Virus record (IMG/VR): IMGVR_UViG_3300008116_000013
DNA from: an uncultured virus (IMG/VR IMGVR_UViG_3300008116_000013)
Taxonomy: Duplodnaviria; Heunggongvirae; Uroviricota; Caudoviricetes
Reading direction: 5' to 3' (one strand)
Length of the DNA: 64,000 nt
Shown here: positions 1,839 through 64,000 of the stretch, piece by piece
Numbering within the stretch: the first letter of the stretch is position 1
How the letters are laid out: every line of letters begins with the position of its first letter
Made by a program: the position numbers and the translations under genes
Notes under the pieces: generated by a model
Told to the model about the DNA's origin: nothing
Database searches by the model: none
The model's input: the letters and a program-made list of their open reading frames with translations, nothing else

Positions 1839-2153
1839 TCAATCACTCCAGGTTAAACTTTCTGGTCTATATCTTTGTGCATTTTTAATCTTTAAGGAAT
1901 TGTTTGTTGATGGATAAATGTTGTGAACAATTGCTCCAGGATATTCACCCTGCAATTGTTCAGCAAGTGCATTTTTATCCATCATCTTACCTTCAACTTC
2001 CATACGATATAATTTTCCTTGCCAAACAACATCGGCAAGAAAAGATTCACCAACTGGTTCTGACTGTGATTCAGAACTATTTACATAGAGATTTCCATTG
2101 AAGTCTCCTGCAATATTTACGCTTTCTGAAAGAAACTCTTTGAATGATTTCAT
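1839..2153 (-). CDS. Putative internal head protein with a capsid-targeting-like N-terminus
   Basis: Starts MKSFKEFLSES, similar to the T4 internal-protein CTS (MKTYQEFIAE). Confidence 0.6.
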   Translation of the reverse strand: MKSFKEFLSESVNIAGDFNGNLYVNSSESQSEPVGESFLADVVWQGKLYRMEVEGKMMDKNALAEQLQGEYPGAIVHNIYPSTNNSLKIKNAQRYRPESLTWSD

Positions 2154-44248: not shown

Positions 44249-44899
44249 TCAGTCTGCCAGTCCAACTCCTGCAATTCCAAATCTTCCACCTGCTCCAGGA
44301 GTGTATGATGTTGAGTTGGTTCTAGAGTTTGTATTTGAAAGAGATCCTGACATGCGAGTTTGTGTTCTTCTTTCTTTACCTTTTGCTCGAATTGTTGGTT
44401 GAGGATTGGTTACAATAGACTTATTTGCAACATCCTTATCCATCATCACATAAGATCCTTGTGCCTGTCCTGGTCTTGGAGTAAATCCTCCATGTGCATT
44501 TGGAACTCTAACTACTTTAGCACCTTGTTTGAATGCTGCTTTTGCCTGATCAACAGAACTGGTTGGTTTACCTTTCTTATCAGCAATATCTTCATCAGAT
44601 GCTGATGCCATCCAACGTTTGATGTTTTTACCAAAATCTCTTGGTGAATCTGTGTTTGTCATTCTTGGATTGACAACTCTTAGATTCACTCTTGATCCAC
44701 CATAATCAGAACCAACTCTGGATGATGGAGTAGTATAAACAACTCCTTTTCGTTCATCAGGATGATAGGTTCCAGTGGATGGTGAGTCCTGGAATCCAGT
44801 TTTGAGGATATTTTCCTTATTTGAAGCAGAAGTATAATGTGCTGTGCGAAGAACTCTCATTCTTCTTGCTTCTGCAATAAATTCAGAAAATGTCTTCAT
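44249..44899 (-). CDS. Putative internal head protein with an ADP-ribosyltransferase-like domain
   Basis: CTS-like MKTFSEFIAE; AHYT...ENILKTGF...GVVYTTP...DYG pattern of H-Y-type ART folds; late promoter ATAAATA at 44915-44921. Confidence 0.6.
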   Translation of the reverse strand: MKTFSEFIAEARRMRVLRTAHYTSASNKENILKTGFQDSPSTGTYHPDERKGVVYTTPSSRVGSDYGGSRVNLRVVNPRMTNTDSPRDFGKNIKRWMASASDEDIADKKGKPTSSVDQAKAAFKQGAKVVRVPNAHGGFTPRPGQAQGSYVMMDKDVANKSIVTNPQPTIRAKGKERRTQTRMSGSLSNTNSRTNSTSYTPGAGGRFGIAGVGLAD

Positions 44900-44917
44900 G
44901 ACTCTTTTAAAAATTAT

Positions 44918-45211
44918 TTATCTTCCAGGACGATCTTGATTCAGCATATAAGTCAGTTTTGCTAGATCTGGATCTGCTCTCTTTTCTGCTGGTGTTCTGC
45001 GTCGTTGTTGACGTTCAGTTTGATACTGTTTTAGTTTGTTAATATCTTCCTTAACTGCTTTTGCTAACTTAACTGGTGGTTTCTTTAATGGTTCCAGATA
45101 CCTTTCCTTCCAACCTGGTGGTGGTGTTGATGGTTCAGGTTGTGGTGCTGGTTTATAAGGTTGATACGGAGATCCACCGCTTTCGGACATGAACTGTGAA
45201 AATGTCTTCAT
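44918..45211 (-). CDS. Putative internal head protein
   Basis: MKTFSQFMSE N-terminus; Pro-rich and basic. Confidence 0.65.
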   Translation of the reverse strand: MKTFSQFMSESGGSPYQPYKPAPQPEPSTPPPGWKERYLEPLKKPPVKLAKAVKEDINKLKQYQTERQQRRRTPAEKRADPDLAKLTYMLNQDRPGR

Positions 45212-45215
45212 GATT

Positions 45216-45422
45216 CTACAGTGGTGAGAGCATCGTGTTGATTCTCATTCTTTGAATGAATTGTCTCACACGATCTGGATCTTTTGTTGGTTTTGGTGCT
45301 TGAGTTGGTTGTCTCATGGCACTTCTGAGATTTCTTTGAACTTCTGGATCTTTGAGTGAGATCACCTGTGCTGGTTTAATTGGATCACCCACTGCTTCCA
45401 GAAATTGTGCAAAGGTTTTCAT
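45216..45422 (-). CDS. Putative internal head protein
   Basis: MKTFAQFLE N-terminus; late promoter CTAAATA at 45433-45439. Confidence 0.65.
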   Translation of the reverse strand: MKTFAQFLEAVGDPIKPAQVISLKDPEVQRNLRSAMRQPTQAPKPTKDPDRVRQFIQRMRINTMLSPL

Positions 45423-45431
45423 GTTTTATTT

Positions 45432-46325
45432 TTATTTAGACCATGCCTTTTGCATCGTGAAGTTCGCATGACTGAAGAACTCTCTGTTGACCAGTTTATA
45501 AGTGCCATACTCATTGGACATTACATAACCTTCGGCATCAATCCGATCATATCCAATATAAGCAGCAGGGCCATCATTGCGACACAGGAACAGACAATCT
45601 TCCTTGATGGATTTGACCAACTTCCACAGGCGAATCAGATTGGCATCACAATCAAATGCATCATCCTCAATCTTACGCTGTTCCCGAATACACGCATTGA
45701 TCGCTTTCTTCAATTCAGTCAGTTGTTTACCAGACACAAAGGTGCAAGTAGTAGACATTTGACGGGCAAAGTCACAGATTTCTTCCACATCAGCAAAAGA
45801 GATCTGATTGTGTTGAATATATGCTTTGGGTTTCACAAACAACACTTCATCAGTGCTGTTCAGATTAACTGTAAGTGGAATTGCCCAACTGTCACGCAGA
45901 TCATCATTTGCCTCATAACGAGTATGAGGAGCAAGAATCACCTTGTGTGTGATGACATCAGGAAACTGATAAGTGATGGTATTAGGAGTGTATTCAGTGT
46001 CTCCACCAAAACCAATGAAATCACCTTGAATAATATCTTCGGTACGTGGCAGAACATCAAAACACTCATGCAAAATGTTTGCCACATTGCCTTCATAGAA
46101 TTGATCAATCTCTTCATGAGAATGTGCAATGCGAATCTTTACCTTGTTGAAAACCGCTTTGGTGCCAACAAAGAATTGACCATTAGCAGGATTGGTTCCC
46201 CATACAATCGCAGGAGCACCATCAATCTTCAGAGACAATGTGCCTGCAGCAGTGAACCAATCCAGCACATTCAGATCACCATTCAGAATGGTGTCTTCAG
46301 GATGCTCAATGTGAAGGTTTTGCAT
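45432..46325 (-). CDS. Ligase-like nucleotidyltransferase-fold protein (DUF6267-like)
   Basis: HIEHPED, SLKIDGAPA (KxDG), IQGDF, EGYV and YKLVNR correspond to motifs I, III, IV and V. Confidence 0.6.
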   Translation of the reverse strand: MQNLHIEHPEDTILNGDLNVLDWFTAAGTLSLKIDGAPAIVWGTNPANGQFFVGTKAVFNKVKIRIAHSHEEIDQFYEGNVANILHECFDVLPRTEDIIQGDFIGFGGDTEYTPNTITYQFPDVITHKVILAPHTRYEANDDLRDSWAIPLTVNLNSTDEVLFVKPKAYIQHNQISFADVEEICDFARQMSTTCTFVSGKQLTELKKAINACIREQRKIEDDAFDCDANLIRLWKLVKSIKEDCLFLCRNDGPAAYIGYDRIDAEGYVMSNEYGTYKLVNREFFSHANFTMQKAWSK

Positions 46326-61400: not shown

Positions 61401-63269
61401 TTTCTGTTCCAGAGTCTGTTCCAGAGGAGCAGTTTGTGCGTTTTTAATATCCTCAGAAATCTTCCAACTTGCAAGACCCACACTAAAAATACTAGCAAGG
61501 GCAGCAACAACAGAAACAGTTTTAGAAAAACTCATTGGTATTCGTCCTCAGGAAAAGTAAAGTATTCGTGAATCGCAGACATCACAGCATCTTCAATATG
61601 CTCAATCACAGCACCTTCACTGGGGTTTTCTACATGTTTGTGTGCCCGATGCCATCCTTGACGCACACCCTCTTCAATTGCCTGTTCTAAAATGACATAA
61701 AACTTAGGTTTCATTCTTCTTCCTCACAAGGGAACATAGCATCATACTCTTCATCGGTCAGAGTCAGGTACTGAACATCAGCATCTTGGTGTTCTTCGGC
61801 ATACATCAGTTGATAGTGTGCGAAGTCAGAGAGACTTGTGCTCCCATATTCTACCAGACCATCAACCAAGCACAAGTAGTTCATAATACCTCCCAATCAC
61901 ATTCCCAATGACAATCGTTGTTTACATTGACCCAGAAGAAGTATTTCTGATTCTCGGATGCAAGAAACATCATACCATCACCCTTGTCTTGCTCAACAAT
62001 ACAAACAGGATTGTTGCCCATCATATTACACAGACGGTTCTTCGCCTTGCTGCTTTTGGGTCTTACGGTTACTCTTTTCATTTTCAATCTCTAGTTTGAG
62101 TTTACGAATTCCAGTAATGAAGTAAGCAAAGTCACGGGTCTCTGTGATAGGTTTGGTTTCACCACACACATCACAGGTTGACGTATAAACAGAAGAACAA
62201 CCTACCGAATAAACACCATAGGTTCGTCCACAATCCATACAGGTATTATAAGCAGTTTCAAGTCTCTTGAGAAGTGCTTTCTTTTCTTTGAGGTTCATAA
62301 GGTCCAAGTTCAACACGGGGTTTTGTGTCTGCAAGGTAATCATACAGCATCTGGGCGAACCCGTACTGGGGTTTTGTGCCAGTTTCAATACTGGATGAGG
62401 TGGCAACAGTCCACATTATATCAAGTTGTAGTTTATCAGGTAAGTTCTTCATCTAAATCAACATCAATACCATCAGTAAGGTCTTTCAATCGGTCAAAGA
62501 AATCTTCATCAAGTGGATATACCTTTTCTTCTCCTCTATCAATTCTATCACACATTTCCATCAGGTACTCAAGAAACTCTTTGGGGTAGGTTTCATCTAG
62601 GTTGATACTTGTCCAAAACCACTGGTAACATTCTTCATATGGGTCATCAGTTGGAAGTAGAGCATAGTCCTTATAGTTTCCACTGATGAGGTCTCTCCAC
62701 ATCTTGAAGTTATTCCACATCTCTCTCCAACCAGTTTGGAAGCAGTGACCAAAGTAATATTCAAACCAGTTTAGTTTTTTAGCCATCTTTCAACTTCATA
62801 TAATCTCTTGCACGGTAAAACAATTCATCACGCCAGTTACGACCACAAATATCAAAAGTGAAACCTAACCGACCAATAGAAAATAGAAAGGAGAATAGTC
62901 TTCCATATCCCATAGAGATTTGAAGATAAGGAAATTCAATCCATTTCCCATACTCTCCATAATCAAAAGCAAGTTGAAGTAGTGAATATCGTCTTCCAGT
63001 ACAAAGAGTCATATACCATTCTTTTCCGTAGTCGTTTCTTTCGCCAAATTGAATGAGTTTCATAATCAGTAAGGTAACGACTTCAGACCATCTAATACTT
63101 CTTGGAATCTTTCGGCACGACTCTTGTGGTGCTCTACATTCTCTTCCAATACACCTACAATATCGTCCAGCACAACATCCAGAGAGGCATCAGTATCAAA
63201 GTATTTCTGGATTGCTTCGGCAAGGTATCTCCTCCGACTCCATTCCATACTATAAGGACGATAATTCAT
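55476..63269 (-). CDS. Long run of small hypothetical ORFs (e.g. 55476-55703, 55851-56057, 56523-56705, 57043-57255, 57245-57469, 57466-57765, 57762-57998, 58036-58305, 58302-58607, 58568-58762, 58762-59349, 59507-59734, 59716-59937, 59934-60119, 60119-60364, 60361-60552, 60549-60833, 60799-61248, 61245-61535, 61532-61714, 61711-61896, 61881-62087, 62026-62406, 62436-62786, 62779-63063, 63066-63269)
   Basis: Head-to-tail minus-strand tiling with ATGA overlaps; sigma70 promoter TTGACG-17-TATACT at 56389-56417. Confidence 0.7.
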
Positions 63270-63290
63270 AATCAGAAAGTATATGCAGGT

Positions 63291-63319
63291 ATTATAGGGT
63301 ATCTAGGGCAGTTTGTCAA
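63291..63319 (-). promoter_or_regulatory. Perfect sigma70 consensus promoter
   Basis: TTGACA-AACTGCCCTAGATACCC (17 nt)-TATAAT; the -35 overlaps the stop codon of the HiPIP-like gene. Confidence 0.9.
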
Positions 63320-63519
63320 TCTTTGTTTTTTCTATCATACTGATGCCACTTGCACCAACCATCGGCAGCAATCTTTCCTTTTACTGCGGTACAGGCATTC
63401 GGTGGTCTCCACATATTACAATTGGAGCACTTCTCATTGCCCTTCGGATGATTTTGATATTTTGCTGTTTCCTTAGAAGACTTTTCTTCTTCTGCTATAA
63501 ACTCTTGATAGGATTTCAT
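63316..63519 (-). CDS. HiPIP-like [4Fe-4S] protein with an N-terminal capsid-targeting-like sequence
   Basis: MKSYQEFIAE followed by K...KYQNHPKGNEKCSNCNMWRPPNACTAVKGKIAADGWCKWH (CxxC-x8-C-x12-C ending in GWC). Confidence 0.85.
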   Translation of the reverse strand: MKSYQEFIAEEEKSSKETAKYQNHPKGNEKCSNCNMWRPPNACTAVKGKIAADGWCKWHQYDRKNKD

Positions 63520-63522
63520 TGG

Positions 63523-63996
63523 TTAAGTTGTCTCTTGTAACATTTTTCTATAACAATCTCTGGCAATAATTGCTTCATCTATCGTATCATAAGTGCCAAC
63601 ATAGTAGTTAATCTTTTTATGCCACATATTGACTTGATATTTACCAGATGGGACTTTTTTTATATTTCTCAACTCACCATTGGGACATCTGCGATTTATA
63701 TTTTGTGTAGAGTTGTCTGCCCATCTTATATTGCCAGGAATATATCCAGAGTTGTTGTTTATTCTATCAATAGAATATCCTTCTGGTCTTTCACCCAAAT
63801 TTTCATCAATATATTTTAGAAACTTTATAAAACCTGGCGGAGTTTGTGTGGTGCCGTGAAACCCTCTTTCAGACCACTCTTCAAAAATTTCTATCCCACG
63901 AGCACCATACTCTGAATAGTTTATATTTTTTGGATCTTTACATCTGCGTATCATACCATTCCAAGTATGATATAGGGGGTGTTGTGATACTTTCAT
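63523..63996 (-). mobile_element. HNH-family homing endonuclease with an AP2-like C-terminus
   Basis: HPLYHTWNGMIRRC...YGARGI...GYSIDRINNNSGYIPGNIRWA...QNINRR...YYVGTYDTIDEAIIARD. Confidence 0.85.
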
Positions 63997-64000
63997 TGTA

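What the first reader, a model, noticed from the sequence alone, without database searches (positions are those of the whole stretch)
63316..63519. HiPIP iron-sulfur protein fused to a T4 capsid-targeting sequence: a possible virion-delivered redox protein
Seen: the first 10 residues are MKSYQEFIAE, and the rest is a compact domain with YQ..P...CxxC-x8-C-x2-V-x-G-x-I-x3-GWC. Established: T4 internal proteins IPII/IPIII begin MKTYQEFIAE (9/10 identical here); this leader targets them to the prohead, is removed by gp21 after the Glu, and the proteins are ejected with the DNA. The Cys/GWC pattern matches short HiPIPs such as Acidithiobacillus Iro, which normally carry a Tat signal, absent here. 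Inference: the phage packages a [4Fe-4S] carrier and injects it at infection, as an electron shunt, iron delivery or oxidant buffer. HiPIPs are not a standard cyanobacterial carrier.
Basis: partly seen in the sequence, partly recalled or inferred. Interest (0 to 1): 0.9.

Follow-up and report, generated by a model that had tools for sequence, protein, structure and literature searches.

The report
Capsid-targeted HiPIP iron-sulfur protein, cyanophage
A freshwater T4-like cyanophage encodes a tiny HiPIP-type iron-sulfur protein whose usual bacterial export signal is replaced by the ten-residue tag that phage T4 uses to load proteins into its head, so it is probably carried inside the virus particle; this has not been tested at the bench.

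Summary
Window 63316-63519 (-) is a 67-residue ORF starting MKSYQEFIAE, which is 9 of 10 identical to T4 IPII/IPIII as read from the T4 record.

Residues 12-59 are a genuine HiPIP. Pfam HIPIP scores above its cut-off, PioC matches at E 2.4e-10 without gaps, and all 18 Foldseek PDB matches are HiPIPs.

The capsid-cargo reading is supported by inference only:
- The genome has a T4-type protease, scaffold, portal and capsid genes.
- Four more ORFs carry the same leader.
- All 87 short viral HiPIPs I collected have a hydrophobic-x-Glu motif at the leader/domain junction, against 9 of 64 Tat-type cellular ones.
- In giant phage proteins the HiPIP module is bounded by such motifs on both sides.
- In other phages the module is fused to head proteases, MuF and InPase.

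No virion proteomics, expression timing or cluster chemistry is available, and the role after delivery is unknown.

My searches found no paper on a phage HiPIP. UniProt already labels the S-SRM01 homologue automatically as a HiPIP-domain protein. This scan noted the same thing before on other genomes.

The parts
63316..63519 (-). Whole ORF, 67 aa plus stop: leader + HiPIP domain + short basic tail
   Evidence: Pfam HIPIP 24.2 bits against cut-off 22
63490..63519 (-). Codons 1-10, MKSYQEFIAE: T4-type capsid-targeting-like leader; inferred protease site after Glu10 (I-A-E)
   Evidence: 9 of 10 identical to T4 IPII/IPIII; forms a short helix (residues 4-8) in the model. In 52 distinct relatives positions 4, 7, 8 and 10 are conserved and positions 3, 5 and 9 vary
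63319..63489 (-). Codons 11-67: predicted mature protein of 57 aa, net charge +5, holding the HiPIP core (residues 12-59)
   Evidence: PioC 6xyv aligns to residues 12-59 without gaps, E 2.4e-10; AF2 pLDDT about 90 over the core; Foldseek TM 0.79, rmsd 1.3 A to PioC; charge
63427..63429 (-). Cys31, first predicted [4Fe-4S] ligand
   Evidence: invariant in alignment A2; codon checked
63418..63420 (-). Cys34, second predicted ligand
63391..63393 (-). Cys43, third predicted ligand
63352..63354 (-). Cys56, fourth predicted ligand (G-W-C)
44249..44899 (-). 216-aa basic ORF with the same leader (MKTFSEFIAEAR...), cargo of no known family: candidate second capsid-targeted protein
   Evidence: no Pfam hit, no tblastn hit in the phage records
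44918..45211 (-). 97-aa Pro/Lys-rich ORF with leader MKTFSQFMSE, directly upstream of the 216-aa ORF
45216..45422 (-). 68-aa ORF with leader-like start MKTFAQFLEA, first of the three-gene array
   Evidence: found by eye; scored below the threshold used
1839..2153 (-). 104-aa ORF with leader MKSFKEFLSE (phrog_1742), conserved in cyanomyoviruses near the head/terminase genes

Best explanation
The gene encodes a minimal PioC-like HiPIP that binds one [4Fe-4S] cluster through Cys31, Cys34, Cys43 and Cys56.

Proposed mechanism:
1. The cluster is inserted in the host cytoplasm, as it is for cellular HiPIPs before Tat export.
2. In place of a Tat signal the protein has a ten-residue T4-type capsid targeting sequence. 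This leader takes it into the scaffolding core of the assembling prohead.
3. The phage's gp21-type (S77) prohead protease removes the leader after Glu10 (I-A-E).
4. A 57-residue basic iron-sulfur protein remains in the head with the DNA and leaves with it at infection.

Shown here: the HiPIP fold and ligand pattern, the absence of an export signal, the identity of the leader, the presence of the protease and scaffold genes, and the comparative pattern.

Inferred: packaging, cleavage, ejection and cluster binding.

The biochemical role is open. My best guess is a one-electron (2+/3+) redox cargo that acts early in the infected cell, as other T4-type internal proteins and polyvalent-protein modules do. 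A role inside the capsid next to the DNA is the next guess.
For: HiPIP identity:
- PF01355 scores 24.2 bits, above the cut-off of 22.
- PioC aligns at E 2.4e-10 without gaps.
- The AF2 model has pLDDT 84.8. All 18 Foldseek PDB matches are HiPIPs, with PioC best at TM 0.79 and rmsd 1.3 A.
- C31, C34, C43, C56, Y21 and W55 are invariant in 22 diverse sequences.

Leader:
- It is 9 of 10 identical to T4 IPII/IPIII.
- Y4, F7, I8 and E10 are the positions that T4 genetics links to targeting and processing (PMC9026906 passages).
- In 52 distinct relatives these four positions are conserved: F45/L4/Y2/K1, F50/Y2, L48/I2/F1/Y1 and E51/S1. Positions 3, 5 and 9 vary.
- In T4 itself, 3 of the 4 ORFs matching the pattern are the proven internal proteins.

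Machinery: the same contig holds terminase, portal, S77 protease, scaffold and major capsid genes. The capsid protein's propeptide region and the protease N-terminus carry hydrophobic-x-Glu motifs.

Leader shared by unrelated cargo:
- Four further ORFs in this genome carry it, three of them in a tandem array.
- In record G007 the HiPIP gene is the third of three consecutive leader-bearing ORFs.

Junction rule:
- 87 of 87 short viral HiPIPs have [LIVFMY]-x-E ending 17-24 residues before Cys1, and so do 22 of 23 internal ones. Only 9 of 64 Tat-type cellular HiPIPs do.
- In proteins of 749-2845 aa the module is also followed by ...KDL[DE]E, after which homology breaks.

Host phages: 8 of 8 records that hold a HiPIP and are at least 90% complete have an S77 protease, and 13 of 21 records overall.

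Fusions in other phages:
- ChaB-HiPIP-S78 prohead protease (P0052, L267).
- DUF2213 head maturation protease (P0124, P0129).
- MuF (P0037).
- InPase (P0042, P0154, P0167), which Iyer et al. 2017 hold to be virion-packaged.
- BFVD shows the fold inside proteins named XkdF, SppA, prohead protease and ParB.

Charge: viral short forms are more basic than Tat-type ones, mean net +5.5 against +2.3.

Selection: median dN/dS is 0.07.
Against: - There is no experimental evidence for this protein or any relative: no virion proteomics, no processed N-terminus, no spectroscopy.
- The residue after the predicted cut is Glu (IAE|EEK), not Ala as in IPII/IPIII.
- T4 gp61.1, a 54-aa hypothetical protein in an early region, also starts MKTFKEFIKE and is not known to be packaged. 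The motif alone therefore does not prove packaging.
- The gene lies in a run of small ORFs of unknown function, not in the head module. There is no TATAAATA upstream: only 3 copies occur in the whole window against 6.7 expected, none near the gene. Late expression is therefore not shown.
- Strict leader sharing was significant only in 2 of 5 genomes tested (G000 and G007). G014, G009 and G011 had 0 other starts above threshold.
- The viral sequences counted are related to each other, so 87 of 87 is not 87 independent events.
- 30 of the 149 representatives are short and leaderless. Leaderless 53-68 aa forms occur on viral contigs, one set beside an integrase, so some phage HiPIPs may work unpackaged.
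- The conserved leader-bearing family phrog_1742 carries no structural annotation in 135 records and has no proteomic flag in Sullivan et al. 2010.
- If ejection requires unfolding, the cluster would be lost.
Confidence: 0.62

Rival explanations
1. The protein is an unpackaged auxiliary redox protein. It is made in the infected cell and stays in the cytoplasm as an electron carrier or sink, like cyanophage ferredoxin or plastocyanin genes. The leader-like start would then be a by-product of recombination among small phage genes that share 5' ends, or an expression-favouring start.
For: - Cyanomyoviruses carry electron-carrier genes; plastocyanin and ferredoxin lie near the phrog_1742 gene in Syn33.
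- The gene sits among small ORFs of unknown function rather than head genes.
- Leaderless short HiPIPs exist: 30 of 149 representatives and on viral contigs.
- T4 gp61.1 shows that the motif occurs on a protein not known to be packaged.
Against: - This does not explain why the hydrophobic-x-Glu junction is kept in every one of 87 short viral forms through many diverged leader versions.
- It does not explain why the module is bounded by such motifs inside giant proteins.
- It does not explain why the domain is repeatedly fused to head proteases, MuF and InPase.
- A carrier at +0.05 to +0.5 V (range quoted in PMC10654088) has no obvious cytoplasmic partner.
Confidence: 0.2
2. The protein is packaged but works inside the capsid and is not an injected effector. 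As a basic DNA-bound iron-sulfur protein it would help condense the genome, or act as a sacrificial electron donor that quenches oxidative damage to packaged DNA in sunlit water. Any entry into the cell would be incidental.
For: - The mature part has net charge +5 and the viral forms are more basic than cellular ones.
- No partner protein is encoded nearby.
- The domain is widespread in large aquatic T4-like phages.
Against: - There is no direct evidence of DNA binding.
- T4 internal proteins with known roles act after ejection (IPI*, passage in PMC13326640).
- Co-occurrence with enzyme modules in polyvalent-type proteins points to action in the host.
Confidence: 0.12
3. The domain has the HiPIP fold but binds zinc or no metal, and serves only as a compact stable module.
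For: No cluster chemistry can be computed here. AF2 folds the chain without a cofactor.
Against: - All four ligand Cys, their PioC-like spacing, and the shielding Tyr and Trp are invariant.
- dN/dS is 0.07.
- HiPIPs are routinely loaded with their cluster in the cytoplasm before Tat export (general knowledge, recalled).
Confidence: 0.05

Closest known systems
PioC of Rhodopseudomonas palustris TIE-1 (PDB 6xyv), the minimal 54-residue HiPIP
   Same: Same fold and size. Four Cys with identical spacing, a gapless alignment over 48 residues and 37% identity in the structural alignment.
   Different: PioC is a Tat-exported periplasmic carrier between PioA and the photosynthetic reaction centre (PMC10654088 passages). 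The phage protein has no twin-arginine signal, has a ten-residue T4-type leader instead, is more basic, and is encoded by a virus of a cyanobacterium.
Phage T4 internal proteins IPII and IPIII with their capsid targeting sequence (Mullaney and Black 1996, as summarised in PMC9026906)
   Same: The leader is 9 of 10 identical and keeps residues 4, 7, 8 and 10. The phage has a gp21-type protease and a gp22-type scaffold. The mature part is small and basic, and other unrelated ORFs in the genome carry the same leader.
   Different: The cargo is a cofactor-bearing redox domain of bacterial origin rather than a phage-specific basic protein. The residue after the cut is Glu, not Ala. Packaging has not been shown.
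Phage-type polyvalent proteins (Iyer, Burroughs, Anand, de Souza, Aravind 2017, PMC5512222)
   Same: Relatives of this domain sit in multidomain phage proteins together with InPase, ParB-like, NUDIX, nucleotidyltransferase and lysozyme modules. That paper argues these proteins are packaged and delivered.
   Different: The window's protein is a single module with its own leader. The paper's main text contains none of the terms iron-sulfur, high potential, Fe-S, 4Fe-4S or cysteine, so this module appears not to be described there. I did not see its supplementary files.
Synechococcus phage S-SRM01 QPX48026.1 / UniProt A0A879R316
   Same: 88% identical, the same length and the same leader type.
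   Different: GenBank annotates it as a hypothetical protein, and UniProt labels it automatically as a HiPIP-profile domain protein. The S-SRM01 paper's main text has no mention of iron-sulfur or HiPIP. Its upstream neighbour is a small ORF, not an HNH endonuclease.

Membership tests
HiPIP (Pfam PF01355) | Profile score above the curated cut-off | tested here: met
   24.2 bits against cut-off 22, E 4.1e-5, residues 13-57; the same result on the genome
HiPIP (Pfam PF01355) | Four Cys ligands with HiPIP spacing | tested here: met
   C31-x2-C34-x8-C43-x12-C56. Gapless against PioC and invariant in 22 sequences
HiPIP (Pfam PF01355) | Conserved aromatic residues shielding the cluster (Tyr before Cys1, aromatic next to Cys4) | tested here: met
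   Y21 and W55 are invariant. The role of these residues is taken from PMC10654088 passages
HiPIP (Pfam PF01355) | HiPIP fold | tested here: met
   AF2 pLDDT 84.8. All 18 Foldseek PDB matches are HiPIPs; PioC TM 0.79, rmsd 1.3 A
HiPIP (Pfam PF01355) | Binds a [4Fe-4S] cluster cycling 2+/3+ at high potential | not testable with these tools
   Needs purified protein, UV-visible/EPR spectra and a redox titration
HiPIP (Pfam PF01355) | Tat signal and periplasmic location (typical of cellular members, not part of the fold definition) | tested here: not met
   There is no twin-arginine motif, and only 10-11 residues precede the domain. 64 of 149 representatives matched my loose RR pattern; a few of those are false, such as P0047 and P0167
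T4-type capsid-targeted internal proteins | N-terminal leader of about 10 residues like that of IPII/IPIII | tested here: met
   MKSYQEFIAE against MKTYQEFIAE, 9 of 10. Weak N-terminal PHROG hits to internal head protein families, E 0.026 and 0.15
T4-type capsid-targeted internal proteins | Targeting residues 4 and 7 and processing residues 8 and 10 | tested here: met
   Y4, F7, I8 and E10 are present. They are conserved in 52 relatives. The rule comes from PMC9026906 passages
T4-type capsid-targeted internal proteins | Phage encodes a gp21-type (S77) prohead protease and a gp22-type scaffold | tested here: met
   PF03420 at 125 bits at G000:C1:4659-5111. PHROG head maturation protease, scaffold, portal and major head protein
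T4-type capsid-targeted internal proteins | Same leader on several unrelated proteins of the genome | tested here: met
   Four more ORFs carry it. 0 of 1000 shuffled leaders reach the observed count. The same strict test was negative in 3 of 4 other genomes
T4-type capsid-targeted internal proteins | Expressed when proheads assemble (late, or early and late) | tested here: inconclusive
   No T4-type late promoter word lies near the gene (the consensus is recalled). The start is 3 nt after the HNH gene's stop, so the gene is probably co-transcribed with it. No transcript data were used
T4-type capsid-targeted internal proteins | Found in virions with the leader removed | not testable with these tools
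   I found no proteomic data for this protein or its relatives
Phage polyvalent proteins (Iyer et al. 2017) | Two or more effector domains in one polypeptide | tested here: not met
   The window protein is a single domain. Only its relatives are embedded in such proteins

The most novel reading that the evidence does not exclude
HiPIP is a widespread, virus-specific capsid-cargo module of large aquatic T4-like phages. It is loaded by a leader or as a protease-released cassette of giant polyproteins. Its iron-sulfur cluster would do real redox work for the virus, in one of two ways: as a DNA-bound electron donor that heals oxidative holes in the packaged genome, or as an injected oxidant/reductant that disables a host iron-sulfur or radical-based defence in the first minutes of infection. 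It would be the first cofactor-bearing electron carrier known to travel inside a virion, and it would add hundreds of iron atoms per particle to the iron budget of phage lysis.
Probability: 0.15. Interest if true: 0.85.

Novelty: new variant of a known kind. Interest (0 to 1): 0.66.

Why it matters
Proteins that phages carry in the head and deliver with the DNA are the first viral molecules to meet the host. The few that have been studied, such as T4 IPI*, defeat host defences.

An iron-sulfur electron carrier as cargo would add a new kind of chemistry to that set. It would also show that the T4 capsid-targeting rule can be read from sequence far outside the coliphages, here in cyanophages and in uncultured phages of 160-380 kb.

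The viral form carries a signature (C-[TS]-M-W-R-x-P-[NH]-[KGA]-C) that found no relative in one genome each of 185,579 bacterial and archaeal species. It therefore looks like a lineage that now lives in viruses.

The idea is cheap to test. S-SRM01 is in culture, and the protein is 57 residues long with a coloured cofactor.

Tried and rejected
- **Protease-substrate complex**. Prediction of the phage's prohead protease with the HiPIP gave no verdict (score 0.00, controls not run). It counts neither for nor against.
- **Virion evidence through the conserved leader-bearing family phrog_1742.** All rows listed from 135 cyanomyovirus records call it a hypothetical protein; the 'virion/structural protein' labels belonged to neighbouring genes. 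Its Syn33 member (T4-GC 1019) has an empty proteomics column in the spreadsheet of Sullivan et al. 2010. Six leader heptamers searched in that paper's sequence file occur only in T4, RB32 and RB69, in none of its 16 marine cyanophages.
- **Late promoter.** TATAAATA occurs 3 times in the window against 6.7 expected, and never near the gene.
- **Isolate phages.** tblastn of the ORF and of P0100 found the HiPIP only in S-SRM01 among 50,697 records. P0031 hit only through its lysozyme part.
- **Near-identical DNA.** megablast of window 62000-64000 found nothing.
- **Kin search.** Whether cyanobacteria have HiPIPs was therefore not tested.
- **Alignments too diverse for a locus search.** Searches failed and were replaced by narrower alignments.
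- **Literature.** 'capsid targeting sequence' + cyanophage gave 1 paper, a T4 review. 'high potential iron-sulfur protein' + phage gave 4 papers, none of them on a phage gene by title and abstract. HiPIP + cyanophage gave 0. 'polyvalent proteins' + HiPIP gave 0. HiPIP + phage gave 20, none on a phage-encoded HiPIP by title and abstract, and the one I opened (PMC10654088) mentions phage only as integrase. 'capsid targeting sequence' alone gave 21 papers, 18 listed, none on cyanophages by title. One search was too loose to be useful.
- **Spurious ORF or chance resemblance.** Rejected: 75 viral contigs hold close relatives and dN/dS is 0.07.

Full report
**What is there.** Window 63316-63519 on the minus strand is a 67-codon ORF that begins at the first ATG after the upstream stop. 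Its product reads MKSYQEFIAE, then EEKSSKETAKYQNHPKGNEKCSNCNMWRPPNACTAVKGKIAADGWCKWHQYDRKNKD.

The window is bases 12093-76092 of an IMG/VR virus record of 174,667 bases, estimated 78% complete. The closest cultured relative is the freshwater cyanomyovirus Synechococcus phage S-SRM01 (Kyanoviridae). Its homologue is 88% identical and is annotated as a hypothetical protein.

**It is a HiPIP.**
- Pfam HIPIP scores 24.2 bits against a curated cut-off of 22.
- The best solved relative is PioC of Rhodopseudomonas palustris (6xyv), at E 2.4e-10. It aligns without a gap from residue 12 to 59, so the four cysteines have the same spacing.
- An AlphaFold model built on 22 diverse sequences has mean pLDDT 84.8, and about 90 over the core.
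- All 18 Foldseek matches in the PDB are HiPIPs, led by PioC at TM 0.79 and rmsd 1.3 A.
- C31, C34, C43, C56, Y21 and W55 are invariant in that alignment.
- The gene is under strong purifying selection: median dN/dS is 0.07 in 28 comparisons.

**The leader is the T4 capsid targeting sequence.** I read the T4 record itself. IPII and IPIII begin MKTYQEFIAE and IPI begins MKTFKEFTST, so the cyanophage ORF matches 9 of 10.

A review of the T4 head work says the first ten residues of IPIII suffice for loading. It places targeting mainly at residues 4 and 7, and processing at residues 8 and 10 (passages of PMC9026906). All four are kept here.

In 52 distinct relatives with this leader class those positions are nearly fixed: F/Y/L at 4, F/Y at 7, L/I at 8 and E at 10. 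Positions 3, 5 and 9 vary.

A DNA pattern for M-K-x-[YF]-x-E-F finds four ORFs in T4. Three are the proven internal proteins and the fourth is gp61.1, a 54-aa hypothetical protein. The reversed control pattern finds none.

**The machinery is present.** Just outside the window the same contig carries the large terminase, sheath, tube, portal, an S77 prohead protease, the scaffold and the major capsid protein. The capsid protein's N-terminal region and the protease's own N-terminus hold hydrophobic-x-Glu motifs of the kind T4 gp21 cuts. The cutting rule itself is taken from the literature.

**The leader is shared by unrelated cargo.** Four other ORFs of this genome start the same way:
- A 104-aa protein of family phrog_1742, at window 1839-2153.
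- A tandem array at window 44249-45422 of 68, 97 and 216 aa. The last begins MKTFSEFIAEAR.

Against the leader, four other start positions in this genome score at least half the self-score. One of these is an internal TTG and probably spurious. Shuffled leaders give 0.10 on average, and none of 1000 reaches four.

In a complete 217-kb relative (G007) the HiPIP gene is the third of three consecutive leader-bearing ORFs. By the same strict measure, sharing was not seen in three other genomes (G014, G009, G011). Looser resemblances ending in hydrophobic-x-Glu are visible in their top-scoring starts.

**Relatives.** An exhaustive profile-free search found 969 proteins at E up to 0.001. I sorted 149 of the 150 listed:
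- About 60 carry a twin-arginine-type signal. 64 matched my loose pattern, of which a few are false.
- 22 are short with a leader-like extension (three of them by an artefact of the rule).
- 30 are short and leaderless.
- The rest are longer proteins or lack the four-Cys core.

Three scans of IMG/VR for leader-bearing families returned 75, 80 (of 114) and 80 (of 86) loci. From these I extracted 111 distinct HiPIP-core proteins, taking the first in-frame ATG as the start:
- All 87 with a short N-terminus have [LIVFMY]-x-E ending 17-24 residues before the first Cys. That is exactly at the leader/domain junction, and it holds through more than a dozen diverged leader versions.
- 22 of 23 with the domain inside a large protein have it too.
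- Only 9 of 64 Tat-type proteins have it.

The viral sequences are related to one another, so these are not independent counts.

In the large proteins (749-2845 aa) the module is preceded by V/L-x-E|AAEKSTK and followed by ...SHRKDL[DE]E. After that the sequences become unrelated. This is what a cassette released by a prohead protease would look like.

Of 21 records holding such loci, 13 have an S77 protease, including 8 of 8 that are at least 90% complete. One further locus was not held.

**Fusions elsewhere.** In other metagenomic phage proteins the domain is joined to:
- An S78 prohead protease behind a ChaB domain (P0052, L267).
- DUF2213-type head maturation proteases (P0124; P0129, which also has NUDIX).
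- MuF head morphogenesis protein (P0037).
- The InPase domain (P0042, P0154, P0167).
- LysM plus a family-19 glycoside hydrolase behind a leader (P0031, P0076, P0089; LysM was found in P0031 only).
- Nucleotidyltransferase-containing giants (P0039 and others).

Iyer and colleagues describe InPase as a module of phage polyvalent proteins that are likely packaged into the virion (passages of PMC5512222). Their main text does not mention an iron-sulfur or HiPIP module, and I did not see their supplementary files.

The BFVD library shows the same fold inside uncultured-phage proteins named XkdF, SppA, prohead protease, ParB/sulfiredoxin and Zeta-toxin-domain.

A leaderless 68-aa form lies between the major head protein and tail-fibre genes of a 63-kb viral contig. 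Another set lies near an integrase.

The viral signature around the second and third Cys found no relative in one genome each of 185,579 prokaryote species.

**How it most likely works.** The chain is made in the cytoplasm and receives its cluster there. The leader takes it into the scaffolding core, and the protease cuts after Glu10. A 57-residue protein of net charge +5 stays with the DNA and leaves with it.

Only the sequence-level steps are shown. Loading, cutting, ejection and the cluster are inferred.

The role is open. As a one-electron carrier without catalytic residues, it must act through electron transfer or through the chemistry of the cluster. I rank an early role in the cell first and a role next to the packaged DNA second.

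**What speaks against.**
- Nothing has been measured.
- The residue after the cut is Glu rather than Ala.
- The gene is in a run of small ORFs, 3 nt behind an HNH endonuclease gene, with no late-promoter word nearby.
- T4 gp61.1 shows the motif on a protein not known to be packaged.
- Leaderless phage HiPIPs exist.
- No proteomic support could be found for any leader-bearing cyanophage protein.
- The complex prediction gave no verdict.

**Novelty.** My searches of the held library found no paper on a phage-encoded HiPIP or on a capsid targeting sequence in cyanophages. Subscription journals are largely outside that library.

UniProt already labels the S-SRM01 protein automatically as a HiPIP-profile protein. 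The S-SRM01 paper does not discuss it.

Earlier notes of this scan reached the same reading for homologues on other genomes. They also reported leader sets on unrelated proteins in other T4-like phages, one of which partly failed a later check. Those notes are not independent evidence.

Noticed in passing
window 44249-45422 (-): A tandem array of three ORFs (68, 97 and 216 aa) that all start with the T4-type leader. The 216-aa one begins MKTFSEFIAEAR, which is like T4 IPII through residue 12. None has a Pfam family. The layout resembles the T4 ipII-ipIII locus.
   Followed up: partly
window 1839-2153 (-): A 104-aa ORF (phrog_1742) starting MKSFKEFLSE. It is conserved in 135 cyanomyovirus records near the terminase and structural genes, and is always annotated hypothetical. 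It is a candidate conserved internal head protein of cyanomyoviruses.
   Followed up: partly
window 63523-63996 (-): An HNH endonuclease ORF (PHROG E 4.9e-36) that ends 3 nt before the HiPIP start. S-SRM01 has a different small ORF at that place, so this looks like a homing-endonuclease insertion.
   Followed up: partly
L006/L083/L089 (T4 NC_000866 18966-19130, -): T4 gp61.1, a 54-aa hypothetical protein next to the primase gene, starts MKTFKEFIKE. It is a fourth T4 ORF with a capsid-targeting-like start, and I know of no packaging test for it.
   Followed up: no
L185:8891-17425 (+), L188:7199-13543 (+), L205:3086-8710 (+): Giant viral proteins of 1875-2845 aa hold one HiPIP module bounded by hydrophobic-x-Glu motifs. 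They also have an Amidoligase_2 domain and, in some relatives, a ParB-like DGHHR motif upstream. They look like polyproteins cut up by the prohead protease.
   Followed up: partly
G007:C1:192825-194030 (L233) and G009:C1 near 92140 (L248): The basic tail that follows the HiPIP domain in the G007 protein (DPVRPGILKR...) is a separate small ORF with its own leader in G009. Cargo modules seem to be shuffled behind leaders.
   Followed up: no
L269:7998-8204 (+): A leaderless 68-aa HiPIP lies between the major head protein and tail-fibre genes of a 63-kb viral contig. A 53-aa form on 67-kb contigs (L270, L272) lies near an integrase-like gene instead.
   Followed up: partly
window 45432-46325 (-): A 297-aa ORF just upstream of the leader array contains an LKIDG motif that reminds me of ligase-type nucleotidyltransferases. 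It was not searched against any library.
   Followed up: no
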